Below are positions 28,845 through 32,213 of a stretch of 64,000 nt of DNA, piece after piece (within the stretch, counting starts at the first letter, position 1; each line of letters opens with the position of its first letter). The DNA comes from Escherichia coli (GTDB lineage Bacteria > Pseudomonadota > Gammaproteobacteria > Enterobacterales > Enterobacteriaceae), in NCBI RefSeq assembly GCF_044647545.1, contig NZ_CP172818.1; one strand, 5' to 3'. The notes beneath the pieces were generated by a model that ran no database searches, had not been told where the DNA came from, and saw only the letters and a list, made by a program, of their open reading frames with translations. Both the position numbers and the translations under genes were made by a program.

Positions 28845-29708
<864 letters not shown>

Positions 29709-29731
29709 TCTTTTTTGCCTGAAAACTAAAG

Positions 29732-29759
29732 CCTTAGCGTTCTGCGTTAAGGTTTTTTT
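29732..29759 (+). terminator. Rho-independent terminator of kdsA
   Basis: Hairpin CCTTAGCG-TTCTG-CGTTAAGG (one G-U pair) followed by TTTTTTT. Confidence 0.7.
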
Positions 29760-29774
29760 CATGGGTGCCGGATA

Positions 29775-29813
29775 CAAAAAAGGCCGCAGGCTGTTACCCC
29801 TGCGGCCGTTTTC
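29775..29813 (-). terminator. Bidirectional-looking terminator hairpin at the 3' end of ldr copy 1 (part of the LDR unit)
   Basis: GGCCGCAGG-CTGTTACC-CCTGCGGCC flanked by an A-run and a T-run; repeated with one mismatch at about 30520-30557. Confidence 0.65.
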
Positions 29814-29856
29814 GGGCGCATATTGCCATCACGGCAGCCTGACGCCCGTTTTCACC

Positions 29857-29964
29857 TTACTTCCGGTTACGCCACCAGCTGACAATCACTGCGGTAATAA
29901 TTCCCGCCAGGATCGGTGCTGCCAGGTCGTGCCAGAAAGTCATGGCAAACTGCGCGAGCGTCAT
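29857..29964 (-). CDS. ldr: Type I toxin Ldr, 35 aa (MTLAQFAMTFWHDLAAPILAGIITAVIVSWWRNRK)
   Basis: Reverse-complemented and translated by hand; single hydrophobic helix with WWRNRK tail; the track's plus-strand ORF here is spurious. Confidence 0.85.
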   Translation of the reverse strand: MTLAQFAMTFWHDLAAPILAGIITAVIVSWWRNRK

Positions 29965-30015
29965 ATAGCCGCCTTGTTGTAATGACAACATTTTGCGGCT
30001 ATTCTTGAATTGTTC

Positions 30016-30081
30016 TGGTTCAAGATTAGCCCCCGTTCTGTTGTCAGGTTGTACCTCTCAACGTGCGGGGGGGTTCTCTTT
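30016..30081 (+). ncRNA. rdl: Candidate Rdl antisense RNA (antitoxin) opposite the ldr 5' leader, copy 1
   Basis: Position within the LDR unit plus terminator-like CCCCCG ... CGGGGGGG with U-rich tail; ends are approximate. Confidence 0.45.
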
Positions 30082-30289
30082 CCAGCAACCAATGCCACCA
30101 GGGATAAAGCCCCCGCAACATTGCGCCTCACCGGATAACGCCGGCTTGGTGTGGATACTACGTCTCAATTCATCTTCACTTCATCCCTGAAATGTTTGCA
30201 ATGAAGAGTGCATTCCGGTTTTTCAACAGCTGTTATTTCTTTTTACCCTTCCTTTCCCCCCCCTTTTTCCCACCTTTATGCCCTAAACA

Positions 30290-30450
30290 AATACTCATAC
30301 CCTTCAATCAAATTACCCTTATTTCCTCTCATCGGGTTCTCTCACAACAATCAGGATAAAGCCCCCCATTCCCTCCGGATACCCGGCTGGATATCGTCTC
30401 AATTCATCTCACTCATCCCAAATGTTCAAAATCATCCTCAACCCAGTCGT
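30290..30450. repeat. Degenerate partial LDR copy inside the spacer between the two intact units
   Basis: By-eye alignment to the distal part of the LDR unit (shared GGATAAAGCCCCC and CGTCTCAATTCATCT blocks); heavily substituted. Confidence 0.5.
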
Positions 30451-30599
30451 TTCATGAGTGCTCTGGATGATGCTTCCAGCTCGGGTTGCCAATATTTACT
30501 TGCAGAAGAGATAAAGACAAAAAGGGCCGCAGGCTGTTACCCCTACGGCCGGTTTCGGGCGCATATTGCCATCACGGCAGCCTGACGCCCGTTTTCACC

Positions 30600-30707
30600 T
30601 TACTTCCGGTTACGCCACCAGCTGACAATCACTGCGGTAATAATCCCCGCCAGGATCGGTGCCGCCAGGTCGTGCCAGAAAATCATGGCAAACTGCGCGA
30701 GCGTCAT
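30600..30707 (-). CDS. ldr: Type I toxin Ldr, 35 aa (MTLAQFAMIFWHDLAAPILAGIITAVIVSWWRNRK)
   Basis: Same frame and length as copy 1; one amino-acid difference (Ile9 instead of Thr9). Confidence 0.85.
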   Translation of the reverse strand: MTLAQFAMIFWHDLAAPILAGIITAVIVSWWRNRK

Positions 30708-30758
30708 ATAGCCGCCTTGTTGTAATGACAACATTTTGCGGCTATTCTTGAATTGTTG

Positions 30759-30825
30759 ATGGTTCAAGATTAGCCCCCGTTCTGTTGTCAGGTTTTACCT
30801 CTCAACGTGCGGGGGTTTTCTCTTT
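30759..30825 (+). ncRNA. rdl: Candidate Rdl antisense RNA, copy 2
   Basis: Same position in unit 2; terminator here is CGGGGG followed by UUUUCUCUUU; ends are approximate. Confidence 0.45.
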
Positions 30826-31112
30826 CCAGCAACCAATGCCACCAGGGATAAAGCCCCCGCAACATTGCGCCTCACCGGATAACGCCGGCTTGGTGTGGAT
30901 ATTACGTCTCAATTCATCTTCACTTCATCCCTGAAATGTTTGCAATAAAGAGTACATTCCGGCTTTTCAACAGCTGTTGCAGTGGTTTCGTGCAGGTTGT
31001 GGTACAGGCTCGCAATTCTGATTAACGACCTGTTCAGGTAGTATGAAGAAATACAATAAGCAGGAATTTATATTATCTCCCCCGATTTCTGTCATCAGAG
31101 GAGATATAACTG

Positions 31113-32213
31113 TCAGGCAAATATCGTCATCAAATAGGCGGCAAACAGTGCCAGATGCGCTGCGCCATTGAGCACGTTAGTTCGTCCGGTGGAGAAGGAG
31201 ATATGGCACAGTACTAAAGAGGCCACCATCACCACCATTTCTGGCGCACCAAGTGCAAACTGCAATTCGTTACCCGTCATAAAGGCAATTAGCGTGACGA
31301 CAGGTACGGTAAGCGAAATGGTTGCTAACACTGAACCAAAGAACAGATTCATCGCGCGCTGGACCTGGTTATTCAACACTGCTTTTAACGCACCTAAACC
31401 TTCCGGCGACAGAATCAACAGAGCCACCAGGAAGCCAGTAAAGGCGACAGGCGCATTCATGCTGTCGAGCAATGTCTCCAGCGGGCTGGCGTTCATTTTG
31501 GTGACTGCAATAACGGCAATCAGATGGATAATCAACCAGATAGCATGCCACAGGCTGCTATGGGCAGACGGTTTACCGTGGTGCGGGTCGTCATCATCAC
31601 TGTCATCTTCGTGCTCGTAGACAAACAAACTTTGATGCGTTTTGGTCTGGATCAGCAAAAATACGCCATACATTGCCGCAGAAATTAATGCTACCAGTAA
31701 CGCCTGACCGGTTGAAAAATTCGCCGCAGGCAGAGCCATTGGAAATACCAGTACGATTATCGCCAGGGGGAACAGCGCAATTAAATACTGCTTGATACCA
31801 AACAGATTCATATATTGGGTGGCAAACTTGCGTCCGCCCAACAATAATGAAAAGCCAACCAGCCCACCGGTAACAATCATAATGATTGAATAGAGCGTAT
31901 CACGCATTAGCGTTGGCGCGGCGTCGCCGGTTGCCATTAAAGCTGAAATCAAACTGACTTCAAGAATAACCACTGAAAGGCTAAGAATAAGCGAACCGTA
32001 AGGTTCTCCCAGGCGATGGGCTAATACGTCCGCATGACGGACAACACTAAAGGCGCTACTTAAAATACCAATAAGAGCAAGAAGATTGATGGCAATGACC
32101 ACTGGTAGTGTCTGGCTGCTTCCCCACAGGAACAGCACTACCAGCGCCAGAACCGGGAAAATAAGCGAAGTCTCCTTGTGGCGGGTTTTTACCGCCTCTT
32201 GAGCATTTGACAT
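31113..32213 (-). CDS. chaA: Ca2+/H+ (Na+/H+) antiporter, CaCA family
   Basis: ATG at 32213 (MSNAQEAVKTRHKE...) gives 366 aa; acidic DDSDDDD loop; longer track ORF rejected. Confidence 0.92.
   Translation of the reverse strand: MSNAQEAVKTRHKETSLIFPVLALVVLFLWGSSQTLPVVIAINLLALIGILSSAFSVVRHADVLAHRLGEPYGSLILSLSVVILEVSLISALMATGDAAPTLMRDTLYSIIMIVTGGLVGFSLLLGGRKFATQYMNLFGIKQYLIALFPLAIIVLVFPMALPAANFSTGQALLVALISAAMYGVFLLIQTKTHQSLFVYEHEDDSDDDDPHHGKPSAHSSLWHAIWLIIHLIAVIAVTKMNASPLETLLDSMNAPVAFTGFLVALLILSPEGLGALKAVLNNQVQRAMNLFFGSVLATISLTVPVVTLIAFMTGNELQFALGAPEMVVMVASLVLCHISFSTGRTNVLNGAAHLALFAAYLMTIFA

What the first reader, a model, noticed from the sequence alone, without database searches (positions are those of the whole stretch)
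29857..30825. The two Ldr toxin copies and their putative Rdl terminators are not identical
Copy 1 encodes Thr at residue 9 (ATGACT), copy 2 encodes Ile (ATGATT). In the candidate Rdl terminator, copy 1 has a G7 run followed by TTCTCTTT, while copy 2 has G5 followed by TTTTCTCTTT, i.e. a better U-tract. Differences in toxin sequence and antitoxin RNA termination could mean the two modules are differently regulated or one is partly inactive.
Basis: seen in the sequence. Interest (0 to 1): 0.3.

Follow-up and report, generated by a model that had tools for sequence, protein, structure and literature searches.

The report
Two known Ldr/Rdl toxin-antitoxin copies
These are two tandem copies of E. 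coli's well-known Ldr toxin / Rdl antisense-RNA module, and their differences are real but mostly ordinary variation between copies, apart from one lineage-specific change in an otherwise invariant antitoxin terminator and an odd 208-base insert that looks like a sequencing artefact.

Summary
The window holds the E. coli kdsA–chaA "long direct repeat" (LDR) locus with two Ldr/Rdl type I toxin-antitoxin modules.

- **Toxin:** ldr copy 1 (29857-29964, −) encodes Thr9 and copy 2 (30600-30707, −) encodes Ile9. This is the same polymorphism that separates K-12 LdrB from LdrA/C. Both peptides are full-length Pfam Ldr_toxin matches and common in public data, so nothing suggests inactivation.
- **Antitoxin mapping:** Rfam rdlD hits lie at 30012-30079 and 30756-30821 (+), both above threshold.
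- **G7 versus G5:** this is a length-neutral TT→GG substitution at 30072-30073, not an indel. It is derived and confined to about 82 of 5,396 complete E. coli records (ST648-type lineage). It hits a site that is TT in 57 of 59 Rdl copies from several enterobacterial genera. It shortens the outer stem from 9 to 7 pairs and removes the two stem-proximal U's, so weaker Rdl-1 termination is plausible but untested.
an apical-loop G/U difference, a 1-nt indel at the Rdl 5' end that changes the frame of an upstream ORF, and a private 208-nt insert (30236-30443). The insert is an LDR unit with about 60% of its bases dropped and no substitutions, most likely an assembly artefact.

Verdict: a known system, low interest.

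The parts
29700..30235 (.). LDR unit 1, the kdsA-proximal ('LDR-A position') unit of 536 nt
   Evidence: 100% identical to NZ_CP033850.1 (FDAARGOS_497) over these 536 nt. Direct-repeat families D1 and D2.
29857..29964 (-). ldr copy 1 CDS, 35 aa, Thr9/Val26: MTLAQFAMTFWHDLAAPILAGIITAVIVSWWRNRK
   Evidence: Pfam PF13940 at 89.2 bits, full length. RefSeq WP_022645587.1 'Ldr family protein' in the near-identical genome. The exact sequence is on 999 contigs.
29782..29807 (-). Terminator-like hairpin of the ldr-1 mRNA (9 pairs, followed by TTTTTT)
30012..30079 (+). rdl copy 1, the antisense antitoxin RNA. It equals K-12 rdlA except for TT→GG at 30072-30073. The apical loop is UUGUA with G at 30051.
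   Evidence: Rfam RF01813 at 73.4 bits, E=1.2e-14. Comparison with K-12 and IAI39.
30072..30073 (+). Derived GG (ancestral TT) in the Rdl-1 terminator. It turns G5+UUUU into G7+UU.
   Evidence: The exact allele is in 82 of 5,396 records. TT is present in 57 of 59 copies across genera and GG in none.
29961..30023 (-). Upstream TTG-initiated ORF of 20 codons. It starts inside the Rdl-complementary stretch, and its TGA overlaps the ldr-1 ATG (ATATGA). It is a candidate leader ORF and is not proven to be translated.
   Evidence: The same layout occurs in K-12 ldrA/B/C.
30236..30443 (.). Private 208-nt insert, G-depleted. It is a perfect subsequence of an LDR unit, that is, a unit with about 60% of its bases missing and no substitutions. 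Probably an assembly or base-calling artefact.
30444..30979 (.). LDR unit 2, the chaA-proximal unit
   Evidence: 100% identical to NZ_CP033850.1. Repeat families.
30525..30550 (-). Terminator-like hairpin of the ldr-2 mRNA (one G·U pair, tail CTTTTT)
30600..30707 (-). ldr copy 2 CDS, 35 aa, Ile9/Val26: MTLAQFAMIFWHDLAAPILAGIITAVIVSWWRNRK. The upstream TTG at 30767 is in frame with it, giving a 55-aa extended ORF at 30600-30767.
   Evidence: Pfam PF13940 at 85.3 bits. RefSeq WP_000170956.1. On at least 1000 contigs.
30756..30821 (+). rdl copy 2, with the canonical G5+UUUUCUCUUU terminator and apical loop UUUUA (T at 30795)
   Evidence: Rfam RF01813 at 83.6 bits, E=2.4e-17.

Best explanation
**What it is.** The region is the E. 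coli kdsA–chaA long-direct-repeat locus. It carries two tandem, intact Ldr/Rdl type I toxin-antitoxin modules.

**How each module works (from the literature, not tested here).**
- Each unit makes a stable ldr mRNA from the − strand, with a long 5' UTR, encoding a 35-aa membrane toxin.
- From the + strand it makes a roughly 66-nt unstable antisense RNA, Rdl, ending in an intrinsic terminator.
- Rdl is fully complementary to part of the ldr 5' UTR.
- It is thought to block toxin synthesis indirectly, by preventing translation of a leader ORF coupled to ldr, as in hok/sok. RNase III cleaves the duplex.

**Why the copies differ.** The differences are the usual divergence and gene-conversion mosaic of LDR paralogues.
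- Thr9/Ile9 is the K-12 LdrB versus LdrA/C polymorphism and is most likely neutral for toxicity.
- The Rdl loop G/U difference and the 5'-end indel are also shared with K-12 paralogues.
- One difference is unusual. TT→GG in the Rdl-1 terminator is a derived allele of the ST648-type lineage at a nearly invariant position.

**Predicted effect of TT→GG (inferred).** It should lower termination efficiency and so shift or lengthen Rdl-1 3' ends. It should not abolish antitoxin function, because the promoter, the main hairpin and the perfect cis-complementarity all remain.

**The 208-nt insert.** The insert between the units is most likely a sequencing or assembly artefact, not biology.
For: **Identity of the locus**
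- Flanking kdsA and chaA, and 96-98% identity to K-12 ldrA/rdlA–ldrC/rdlC.
- Rfam rdlD hits above the gathering score. Pfam Ldr_toxin full-length hits.
- RefSeq annotates both ORFs as Ldr family toxins in the near-identical genome.

**Ordinary paralogue variation**
- Thr9 is in K-12 LdrB and IAI39 copy 1. Ile9 is in K-12 LdrA/C.
- Both exact peptides are on about 1000 contigs.
- The loop G occurs in K-12 rdlA and the loop T in rdlB/C.
- The in-frame versus −1-frame upstream TTG ORF occurs in K-12 ldrD versus ldrA/B/C.

**Derived GG**
- K-12 and IAI39 kdsA-proximal Rdl are otherwise identical to window copy 1 but carry TT.
- The exact allele is in 82 of 5,396 records. These include many of the records whose flanks are 100% identical to the window; 88 records reach at least 99%.
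- 57 of 59 Rdl-like copies in species representatives have G5+TTTT, and none has GG. The genera are Escherichia, Citrobacter, Klebsiella, Kluyvera, Pseudocitrobacter, Pluralibacter and Salmonella.

**Predicted terminator weakening**
- The outer stem drops from 9 to 7 pairs, and the MFE from −27.7 to −25.2 kcal/mol.
- A slipped register is only 1.9 kcal/mol worse.
- The weighted U-tract score falls from 3.97 to 1.0 in the MFE register, or to 2.79 in the slipped register.

**Mechanism from the literature:** PMC4147584, PMC8167048, PMC7373196.

**Artefact reading of the insert**
- It is absent from all 5,426 complete E. coli genomes and from metagenome contigs.
- Its longest common subsequence with an LDR unit is 208 of 208. 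Random 536-nt window segments give 190±2.9, with a maximum of 196.
- The best-aligned 113 nt show 56 deletions, no substitutions and no insertions.
Against: - No expression, 3'-end or toxicity data exist for these alleles. The effect of GG on termination is a prediction from folding and a U-tract heuristic.
- The GG allele is fixed in about 82 genomes of a globally successful lineage, so any defect is tolerated. The change may be neutral or even compensated.
- The same two bases also change the ldr-1 mRNA (AA→CC). The cross-genus conservation could therefore reflect an mRNA-side function rather than the Rdl terminator.
- The leader-ORF (ldrX) model is a literature proposal described as needing confirmation (PMC4147584). 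I could not access the papers that define ldrX, so my TTG ORF may not be ldrX.
- The artefact reading of the insert cannot be proven without reads.
Confidence: 0.85

Rival explanations
1. Module 1 is functionally altered. The TT→GG change substantially impairs Rdl-1 termination or stability, so ldr-1 is regulated differently from ldr-2. Possible outcomes are a read-through antisense RNA extending over the ldr-1 promoter, a lower level of mature Rdl-1, or dependence on cross-repression by Rdl-2.
For: - The change hits a position that is TT in 57 of 59 copies across several genera, which argues for constraint.
- The 2 nt that would pair with it vary (AG 46, GG 8, CA 3, TA 1, CG 1). The constraint is therefore more likely U-tract than stem.
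- The U-tract weight drops from 3.97 to 1.0-2.79.
- The Rfam score drops by 10 bits.
- Non-cognate Rdl/ldr duplexes are still very stable at −122 to −125 kcal/mol, so cross-repression is physically possible.
Against: - The main hairpin, the promoter region and the cis-complementarity are intact.
- A slipped register restores a stem directly abutting UUCUCUUU at a cost of only 1.9 kcal/mol.
- The allele is fixed in a thriving lineage with an intact ldr-1 ORF.
- There are no expression data.
Confidence: 0.3
2. The differences between the copies, namely the apical loop G/U, the 5' tail and the 3' GG/UU, act as specificity determinants. Each Rdl would then repress only its own ldr mRNA, as shown for the Sib/Ibs paralogues.
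For: - The differences cluster in the parts of Rdl expected to be single-stranded: the 5' tail, the centre of the 5-nt apical loop and the 3' tail.
- Cognate duplexes are 13-26 kcal/mol more stable than non-cognate ones.
- Sib RNAs discriminate between near-identical ibs targets (PMC2943612 abstract).
Against: - Only about 5-6 of 68 positions differ.
- No experimental data on Rdl cross-talk were found in the searched literature.
- The same loop variants are shuffled among paralogues by gene conversion and crossover, which argues against tight co-adaptation.
Confidence: 0.25
3. The 208-nt insert is a real genomic feature: a heavily decayed third LDR copy, comparable to the three copies in K-12.
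For: - K-12 carries three tandem LDR units at this locus.
- The insert is collinear and in register with an LDR unit and sits exactly at the unit boundary.
- Copy number at this locus changes by unequal crossover. Strain ST648 (CP008697) has one hybrid unit.
Against: - Natural decay produces substitutions. Here there are none: the longest common subsequence is 208/208, against 190±2.9 for random segments.
- About 60% of the unit's bases are missing in dozens of tiny deletions biased to G.
- The insert is absent from all 5,426 complete genomes, including about 88 near-identical relatives, and from metagenome contigs.
- It is the only 100-nt stretch in the 64 kb with so few of any one base.
Confidence: 0.1

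Closest known systems
E. coli K-12 LDR-A/B/C (ldrA-rdlA, ldrB-rdlB, ldrC-rdlC) between kdsA and chaA
   Same: - Same locus and same orientation.
- 96-98% DNA identity per unit.
- Same 35-aa toxin with the Thr9 (LdrB) / Ile9 (LdrA/C) polymorphism.
- Same Rdl promoter region, hairpin and position.
- Window Rdl-1 equals K-12 rdlA except for two bases.
   Different: - Two units instead of three.
- Val26 instead of Ala26 in both peptides.
- TT→GG in the Rdl-1 terminator.
- Copy 2 has the upstream TTG in frame with ldr, as in K-12 ldrD and unlike ldrA/B/C.
- A 208-nt anomalous insert lies between the units.
ldrD-rdlD of E. coli K-12 (the experimentally characterised member; Rfam RF01813 seed)
   Same: - Same family and architecture.
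- The block CAACGTGCGGGGGTTTTCTC is identical in rdlD and window Rdl-2.
- The toxin shares the WHDLAAP…G motif and the C-terminal W + basic cluster.
   Different: - About 81% DNA identity only.
- Different locus (bcsG–yhjV).
- The peptide differs at many positions.
hok/sok (with the mok leader ORF)
   Same: The proposed regulatory logic is shared. An antisense RNA targets the 5' UTR rather than the toxin's ribosome-binding site, and toxin translation is coupled to an overlapping leader ORF (PMC4147584, PMC8167048).
   Different: - The toxins and RNAs are unrelated. The Rfam sok model scores only 26-27 bits against a threshold of 59.
- The leader-ORF mechanism is unproven for ldr.
Ibs/Sib tandem type I modules
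   Same: Tandemly duplicated type I modules in one intergenic region. The paralogues differ at a few bases, and these set cognate specificity (PMC2943612, PMC2887945).
   Different: A different toxin and RNA family. Specificity has been demonstrated for Sib but not for Rdl.

Membership tests
Ldr toxin family (Pfam PF13940; Fst/Ldr superfamily) | Full-length match to the 35-position Ldr_toxin profile above the curated cutoff | tested here: met
   Copy 1 scores 89.2 bits and copy 2 scores 85.3 bits, against a cutoff of 27. Both cover positions 1-35 of 35.
Ldr toxin family (Pfam PF13940; Fst/Ldr superfamily) | Superfamily signature: a hydrophobic TM helix with a PxxxG motif, a conserved Trp after the helix, and a charged C-terminus (PMC7472228, PMC2887945) | tested here: met
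   Both peptides have P17-I-L-A-G21, W30-W31 and the C-terminal RNRK (read directly).
Ldr toxin family (Pfam PF13940; Fst/Ldr superfamily) | Overexpression is toxic to the host | not testable with these tools
   Only literature on K-12 LdrA, LdrB and LdrD is available (PMC12643268, PMC7472228, PMC6678987). The Val26 alleles found here have not been tested.
Rdl antitoxin RNA (Rfam RF01813 rdlD) | Covariance-model match (sequence plus structure) above the gathering score | tested here: met
   73.4 and 83.6 bits against 50. Both hits cover model positions 1-66 of 66.
Rdl antitoxin RNA (Rfam RF01813 rdlD) | Encoded antisense to the 5' UTR of ldr, upstream of and not overlapping the ldr start codon | tested here: met
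   Rdl-1 lies at 30012-30079 (+) and the ldr-1 ATG at 29964 (−). Rdl-2 lies at 30756-30821 (+) and the ldr-2 ATG at 30707 (−). Both leave a 48-nt gap, as in K-12.
Rdl antitoxin RNA (Rfam RF01813 rdlD) | Intrinsic terminator: a GC-rich stem followed directly by a U-run (canonical G5+UUUUCUC) | tested here: inconclusive
   Copy 2 meets it. In copy 1 the two stem-proximal U's are replaced by G. A hairpin plus UUCUCUUU remains, and the pattern scan still lists terminator-like sites. Efficiency is unknown.
Rdl antitoxin RNA (Rfam RF01813 rdlD) | The RNA is expressed and represses Ldr synthesis | not testable with these tools
   Shown only for K-12 RdlD in the literature (PMC4147584).
LDR (long direct repeat) locus kdsA–chaA | Tandem units of about 535 bp between kdsA and chaA, each with one ldr and one rdl | tested here: met
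   The units are 29700-30235 and 30444-30979. Spacing is 535 bp in the closest genomes. In the window it is 743 bp, solely because of the 208-nt insert.

The most novel reading that the evidence does not exclude
The ST648-lineage TT→GG substitution removes the stem-proximal U's of an Rdl terminator that is otherwise invariant across enterobacterial genera. If it matters, it creates a naturally 'terminator-weakened' antitoxin allele. Module 1 would then make read-through or less abundant Rdl and become a differently tuned, more easily triggered toxin copy in a pandemic ExPEC lineage.
Probability: 0.2. Interest if true: 0.3.

Novelty: already known. Interest (0 to 1): 0.12.

Why it matters
It matters little beyond annotation.

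- **Annotation.** The locus should be labelled as two intact Ldr/Rdl type I toxin-antitoxin modules. RefSeq annotation of the closest genome lists the toxins but not the Rdl RNAs.
- **A possible small experiment.** The TT→GG allele offers a natural variant for testing how much the stem-proximal U's of the Rdl terminator matter. It could also show whether tandem Rdl copies back each other up.
- **A caution.** The 208-nt insert should not be interpreted biologically before it is verified. It inflates the spacing between the copies and creates spurious ORFs.

Tried and rejected
- **Finding the 208-nt insert elsewhere.** All attempts failed, so the insert is private to this sequence.
  - blastn in 'distant' mode against 5,426 complete E. 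coli genomes gave no match.
  - An exact 33-mer was not found in metagenome contigs.
  - Exact-protein look-ups of the two ORFs spanning the insert found nothing on record.
- **Reading the insert as natural decay.** Rejected, because it is a perfect subsequence of the LDR unit.
- **The papers that define ldrX.** I could not obtain Kawano 2012 (RNA Biology) by DOI or PubMed id. The leader-ORF assignment therefore stays tentative.
- **NCBIfam.** It has no model that hits the 35-aa peptides.
- **The sigma-70 consensus scan.** It found no promoter in 29700-31120. This is uninformative, because the rdl and ldr promoters do not fit its strict criteria.
- **Weak Rfam hits.** The sok model (26-27 bits against 59) and the rnk_leader model (23.6 against 50) fall below threshold and were disregarded.
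- **The source strain.** I checked whether the window is simply FDAARGOS_497. It is not, because it lacks that strain's integrase island and IS4. The source strain was not identified.
Full report
**1. What is at the coordinates**

The stretch 29700-31120 lies between kdsA (28854-29708, +) and chaA (on the − strand, from 31113). It contains two direct repeats that are 97-98% identical.

Each repeat carries a 35-codon ORF on the − strand.
- Copy 1 (29857-29964) encodes MTLAQFAMTFWHDLAAPILAGIITAVIVSWWRNRK.
- Copy 2 (30600-30707) is identical except Ile at residue 9.
- Both are full-length matches to Pfam PF13940 Ldr_toxin, at 89.2 and 85.3 bits against a cutoff of 27.

On the + strand, 48 nt beyond each ldr start codon, Rfam RF01813 (rdlD antitoxin) matches 30012-30079 (73.4 bits) and 30756-30821 (83.6 bits). 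The gathering score is 50 and both hits cover the whole model.

The locus is collinear with K-12 kdsA–ldrA/rdlA–ldrB/rdlB–ldrC/rdlC–chaA at 96-98% identity per unit.

**2. Checking the observation**

- Codon 9 is ACT (Thr) in copy 1 and ATT (Ile) in copy 2.
- G7+TTCTCTTT occupies 30067-30081, and G5+TTTTCTCTTT occupies 30811-30825.
- One refinement is needed. The pairwise alignment has no gap there. The difference is GG (30072-30073) against TT (30816-30817), a length-neutral double substitution.

**3. All differences between the two units**

- Three differences lie in the ORF. Two are synonymous and one is the Thr9/Ile9 change.
- Three lie in the ldr terminator region. Copy 2 has one G·U pair and a CTTTTT tail.
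- A 1-nt indel plus one substitution lie at the Rdl 5' end (GTT-CTGG against GTTGATGG).
- The centre of the 5-nt apical loop of Rdl differs (G30051 against T30795).
- GG/TT differs in the Rdl terminator.
- Four substitutions lie further upstream in the ldr 5' region.

The indel changes how the only upstream ORF that starts inside the Rdl-complementary stretch relates to ldr.
- In copy 1 a TTG ORF (29961-30023, −) runs 20 codons and stops at a TGA overlapping the ldr ATG (ATATGA).
- In copy 2 the same TTG (30767) is in frame with ldr and gives a 55-aa extended product.
- Both layouts occur among the K-12 paralogues. ldrA/B/C are out of frame and ldrD is in frame, so neither layout signals a defect.
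- Whether this ORF is the 'ldrX' of the literature could not be checked.

**4. The Thr/Ile difference is ordinary**

- Thr9 is the K-12 LdrB state and Ile9 the LdrA/LdrC state. IAI39 has the same Thr-then-Ile order.
- Both exact window peptides are already in public collections on about 1000 contigs each. They sit alongside several other Thr9 and Ile9 alleles.
- LdrA is an established membrane toxin (PMC12643268, PMC7472228), and LdrB is described as killing on overexpression (PMC6678987).
- Nothing points to an inactive toxin.

**5. The GG in Rdl-1 is the one unusual difference**

*It is derived and lineage-restricted.*
- The kdsA-proximal Rdl of K-12 and of IAI39 (phylogroup F by my own knowledge) is identical to window Rdl-1 except that it has TT.
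- All K-12 copies, including the roughly 19% diverged rdlD, have CGGGGGTTTTCTC.
- A 62-nt query centred on the site is matched exactly in only 82 of 5,396 E. coli records.
- Among the records listed, many also have flanks 100% identical to the window: FDAARGOS_497, MS6198, ECONIH1, Ecol_881 and IMT16316. In all, 88 records reach at least 99%. My reading of these as ST648-type strains rests on my own knowledge of the strain names.

*The site is nearly invariant across genera.*
- A scan of one genome per species used the pattern CAACGTGCGGGGGNNTTCTC.
- It returned 59 Rdl-like copies (42 distinct sequences) from Escherichia, Citrobacter, Klebsiella, Kluyvera, Pseudocitrobacter, Pluralibacter and Salmonella.
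- NN is TT in 57, CT in one and AT in one, and never GG.
- The two bases that would pair with these U's vary (AG 46, GG 8, CA 3, TA 1, CG 1). The conservation therefore looks like a U-tract (or mRNA-side) constraint rather than a stem constraint.

**6. Predicted consequence**

- In the Rfam structure the outer stem is AGCCCCCGU/GCGGGGGUU, 9 pairs, followed by UUCU.
- With GG the A·U and G·U pairs are lost. The MFE stem has 7 pairs followed by GG-UUCUCUUU, and the MFE is −25.2 against −27.7 kcal/mol.
- A slipped register, in which the five C's pair with the last five G's, costs only 1.9 kcal/mol more. It places UUCUCUUU next to the G-C core of the stem, although the predicted fold then also pairs the first two U's.
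- I computed a distance-weighted U-tract score. Its weighting scheme is recalled from d'Aubenton-Carafa et al. 1990 and is marked as my own knowledge.
  - The score is 3.97 for the canonical tail.
  - It falls to 1.0 in the MFE register and to 2.79 in the slipped register.
- Weaker termination of Rdl-1 is thus a reasonable but unproven prediction.
- The Rdl promoter region is identical in the two copies, the main hairpin is intact, and cis-complementarity is perfect by construction. Loss of antitoxin function is therefore unlikely, and the allele is fixed in a successful lineage.
- Full-length non-cognate duplexes remain very stable at −122 to −125 kcal/mol, against −138 to −148 for cognate pairs. 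Any discrimination between copies would be kinetic.

**7. Mechanism (literature)**

- Rdl overlaps the long 5' UTR of ldr, not its ribosome-binding site.
- It is proposed to block a leader ORF (ldrX) whose translation is coupled to ldr, as in hok/mok/sok. That proposal is described as still needing confirmation (PMC4147584, PMC8167048).
- RNase III-dependent dsRNA forms in the rdlD/ldrD overlap (PMC7373196).
- Tandem duplication of ldr-rdl and lineage-specific copy-number change are documented (PMC2887945).

**8. An anomaly inside the finding's coordinates**

The window is 100% identical to NZ_CP033850.1 over 29700-30235 and 30444-31120, but it has 208 extra bases at 30236-30443. This makes the ldr spacing 743 bp instead of 535 bp.

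*Composition and occurrence.*
- The insert has only 15 G's in 208 nt, with GC skew down to −0.81.
- It is the only place in the 64 kb where any base falls to 6 or fewer per 100 nt.
- It has no match in 5,426 complete E. coli genomes or in metagenome contigs.

*Relation to the LDR unit.*
- It aligns collinearly and in register with an LDR unit, scoring 134 against 44±6 for shuffles.
- Its best-aligned 113 nt show 112 matches, 56 deletions, no substitutions and no insertions. Of the 57 G's in the aligned LDR segment as a whole, 39 are deleted.
- The whole insert is a perfect subsequence of either flanking 536-nt unit, with a longest common subsequence of 208/208.
- Controls give 190±2.1 for shuffles, 190±2.9 (maximum 196) for 55 random segments, and 182 for the reverse complement.

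A whole unit with about 60% of its bases dropped and not one substitution is not what sequence decay looks like. I regard it as an assembly or base-calling artefact, possibly a mangled consensus of a repeat copy. Without reads this cannot be proven.

**9. Verdict**

This is a known system at a known locus. The 'partly inactive toxin' idea is not supported, and the 'different Rdl termination' idea is plausible for copy 1 but untested. Novelty: already known. Interest: low.

Noticed in passing
window 30236-30443: A private 208-nt G-depleted insert lies between the two LDR units. It is a perfect subsequence (208/208) of an LDR unit, with no substitutions. It is absent from 5,426 complete E. coli genomes and from metagenome contigs. 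It is probably an assembly or base-calling artefact, and it creates spurious ORFs such as 30208-30585 (+) and 30192-30359 (+).
   Followed up: yes
window 29961-30023 (−) and 30600-30767 (−): A TTG-initiated upstream ORF starts inside the Rdl-complementary stretch. In copy 1 it is out of frame: 20 codons, with its stop overlapping the ldr ATG. In copy 2 it is in frame with ldr, giving a 55-aa extended Ldr that older annotations used (for example E. coli 536 ECP_1264). K-12 ldrA/B/C have the first layout and ldrD the second.
   Followed up: partly
L002 (NZ_CP008697.1, strain ST648) 1575-2178, against window 29920-29939: This close relative has a single hybrid LDR unit. It carries copy-1 variants up to 29920 and copy-2 variants from 29939 on. 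That is a deletion by unequal crossover between the two copies, which also removed the G7 Rdl allele.
   Followed up: partly
window 29961-30131 (−), against 30795-30875 (−): The Rdl apical-loop G/T polymorphism also decides whether a long GTG-initiated ORF in the ldr 5' UTR stays open. In copy 1 it reads TAC and the ORF runs 56 codons to the ldr ATG. In copy 2 it reads TAA and the ORF stops after 26 codons. Whether this ORF is ever translated is unknown.
   Followed up: no
window 1-17292 and about 17293: The closest complete genome (FDAARGOS_497) carries an island of roughly 17 kb next to ychF. The island holds a tyrosine integrase, a DEAD/DEAH helicase, an AAA ATPase and an IS1182. The window has the ordinary core genes there instead (ycgV, dhaR, dhaKLM, treA, cvrA).
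   Followed up: partly
window 53963-54914: The window holds 952 nt where FDAARGOS_497 has a different 1,390-nt stretch annotated as IS4, between tdk and adhE. The two stretches share no detectable similarity. Other E. coli genomes match the window version at about 98% and annotate an 'IS4 family transposase' there.
   Followed up: partly
window 46947, 47065 and 59019: There are small indels relative to FDAARGOS_497. Two of them, of 2 nt and 1 nt, each lie just before a GGTGGTGGGG motif in the tRNA-Tyr region. The third is a 4-nt deletion at 59019.
   Followed up: no
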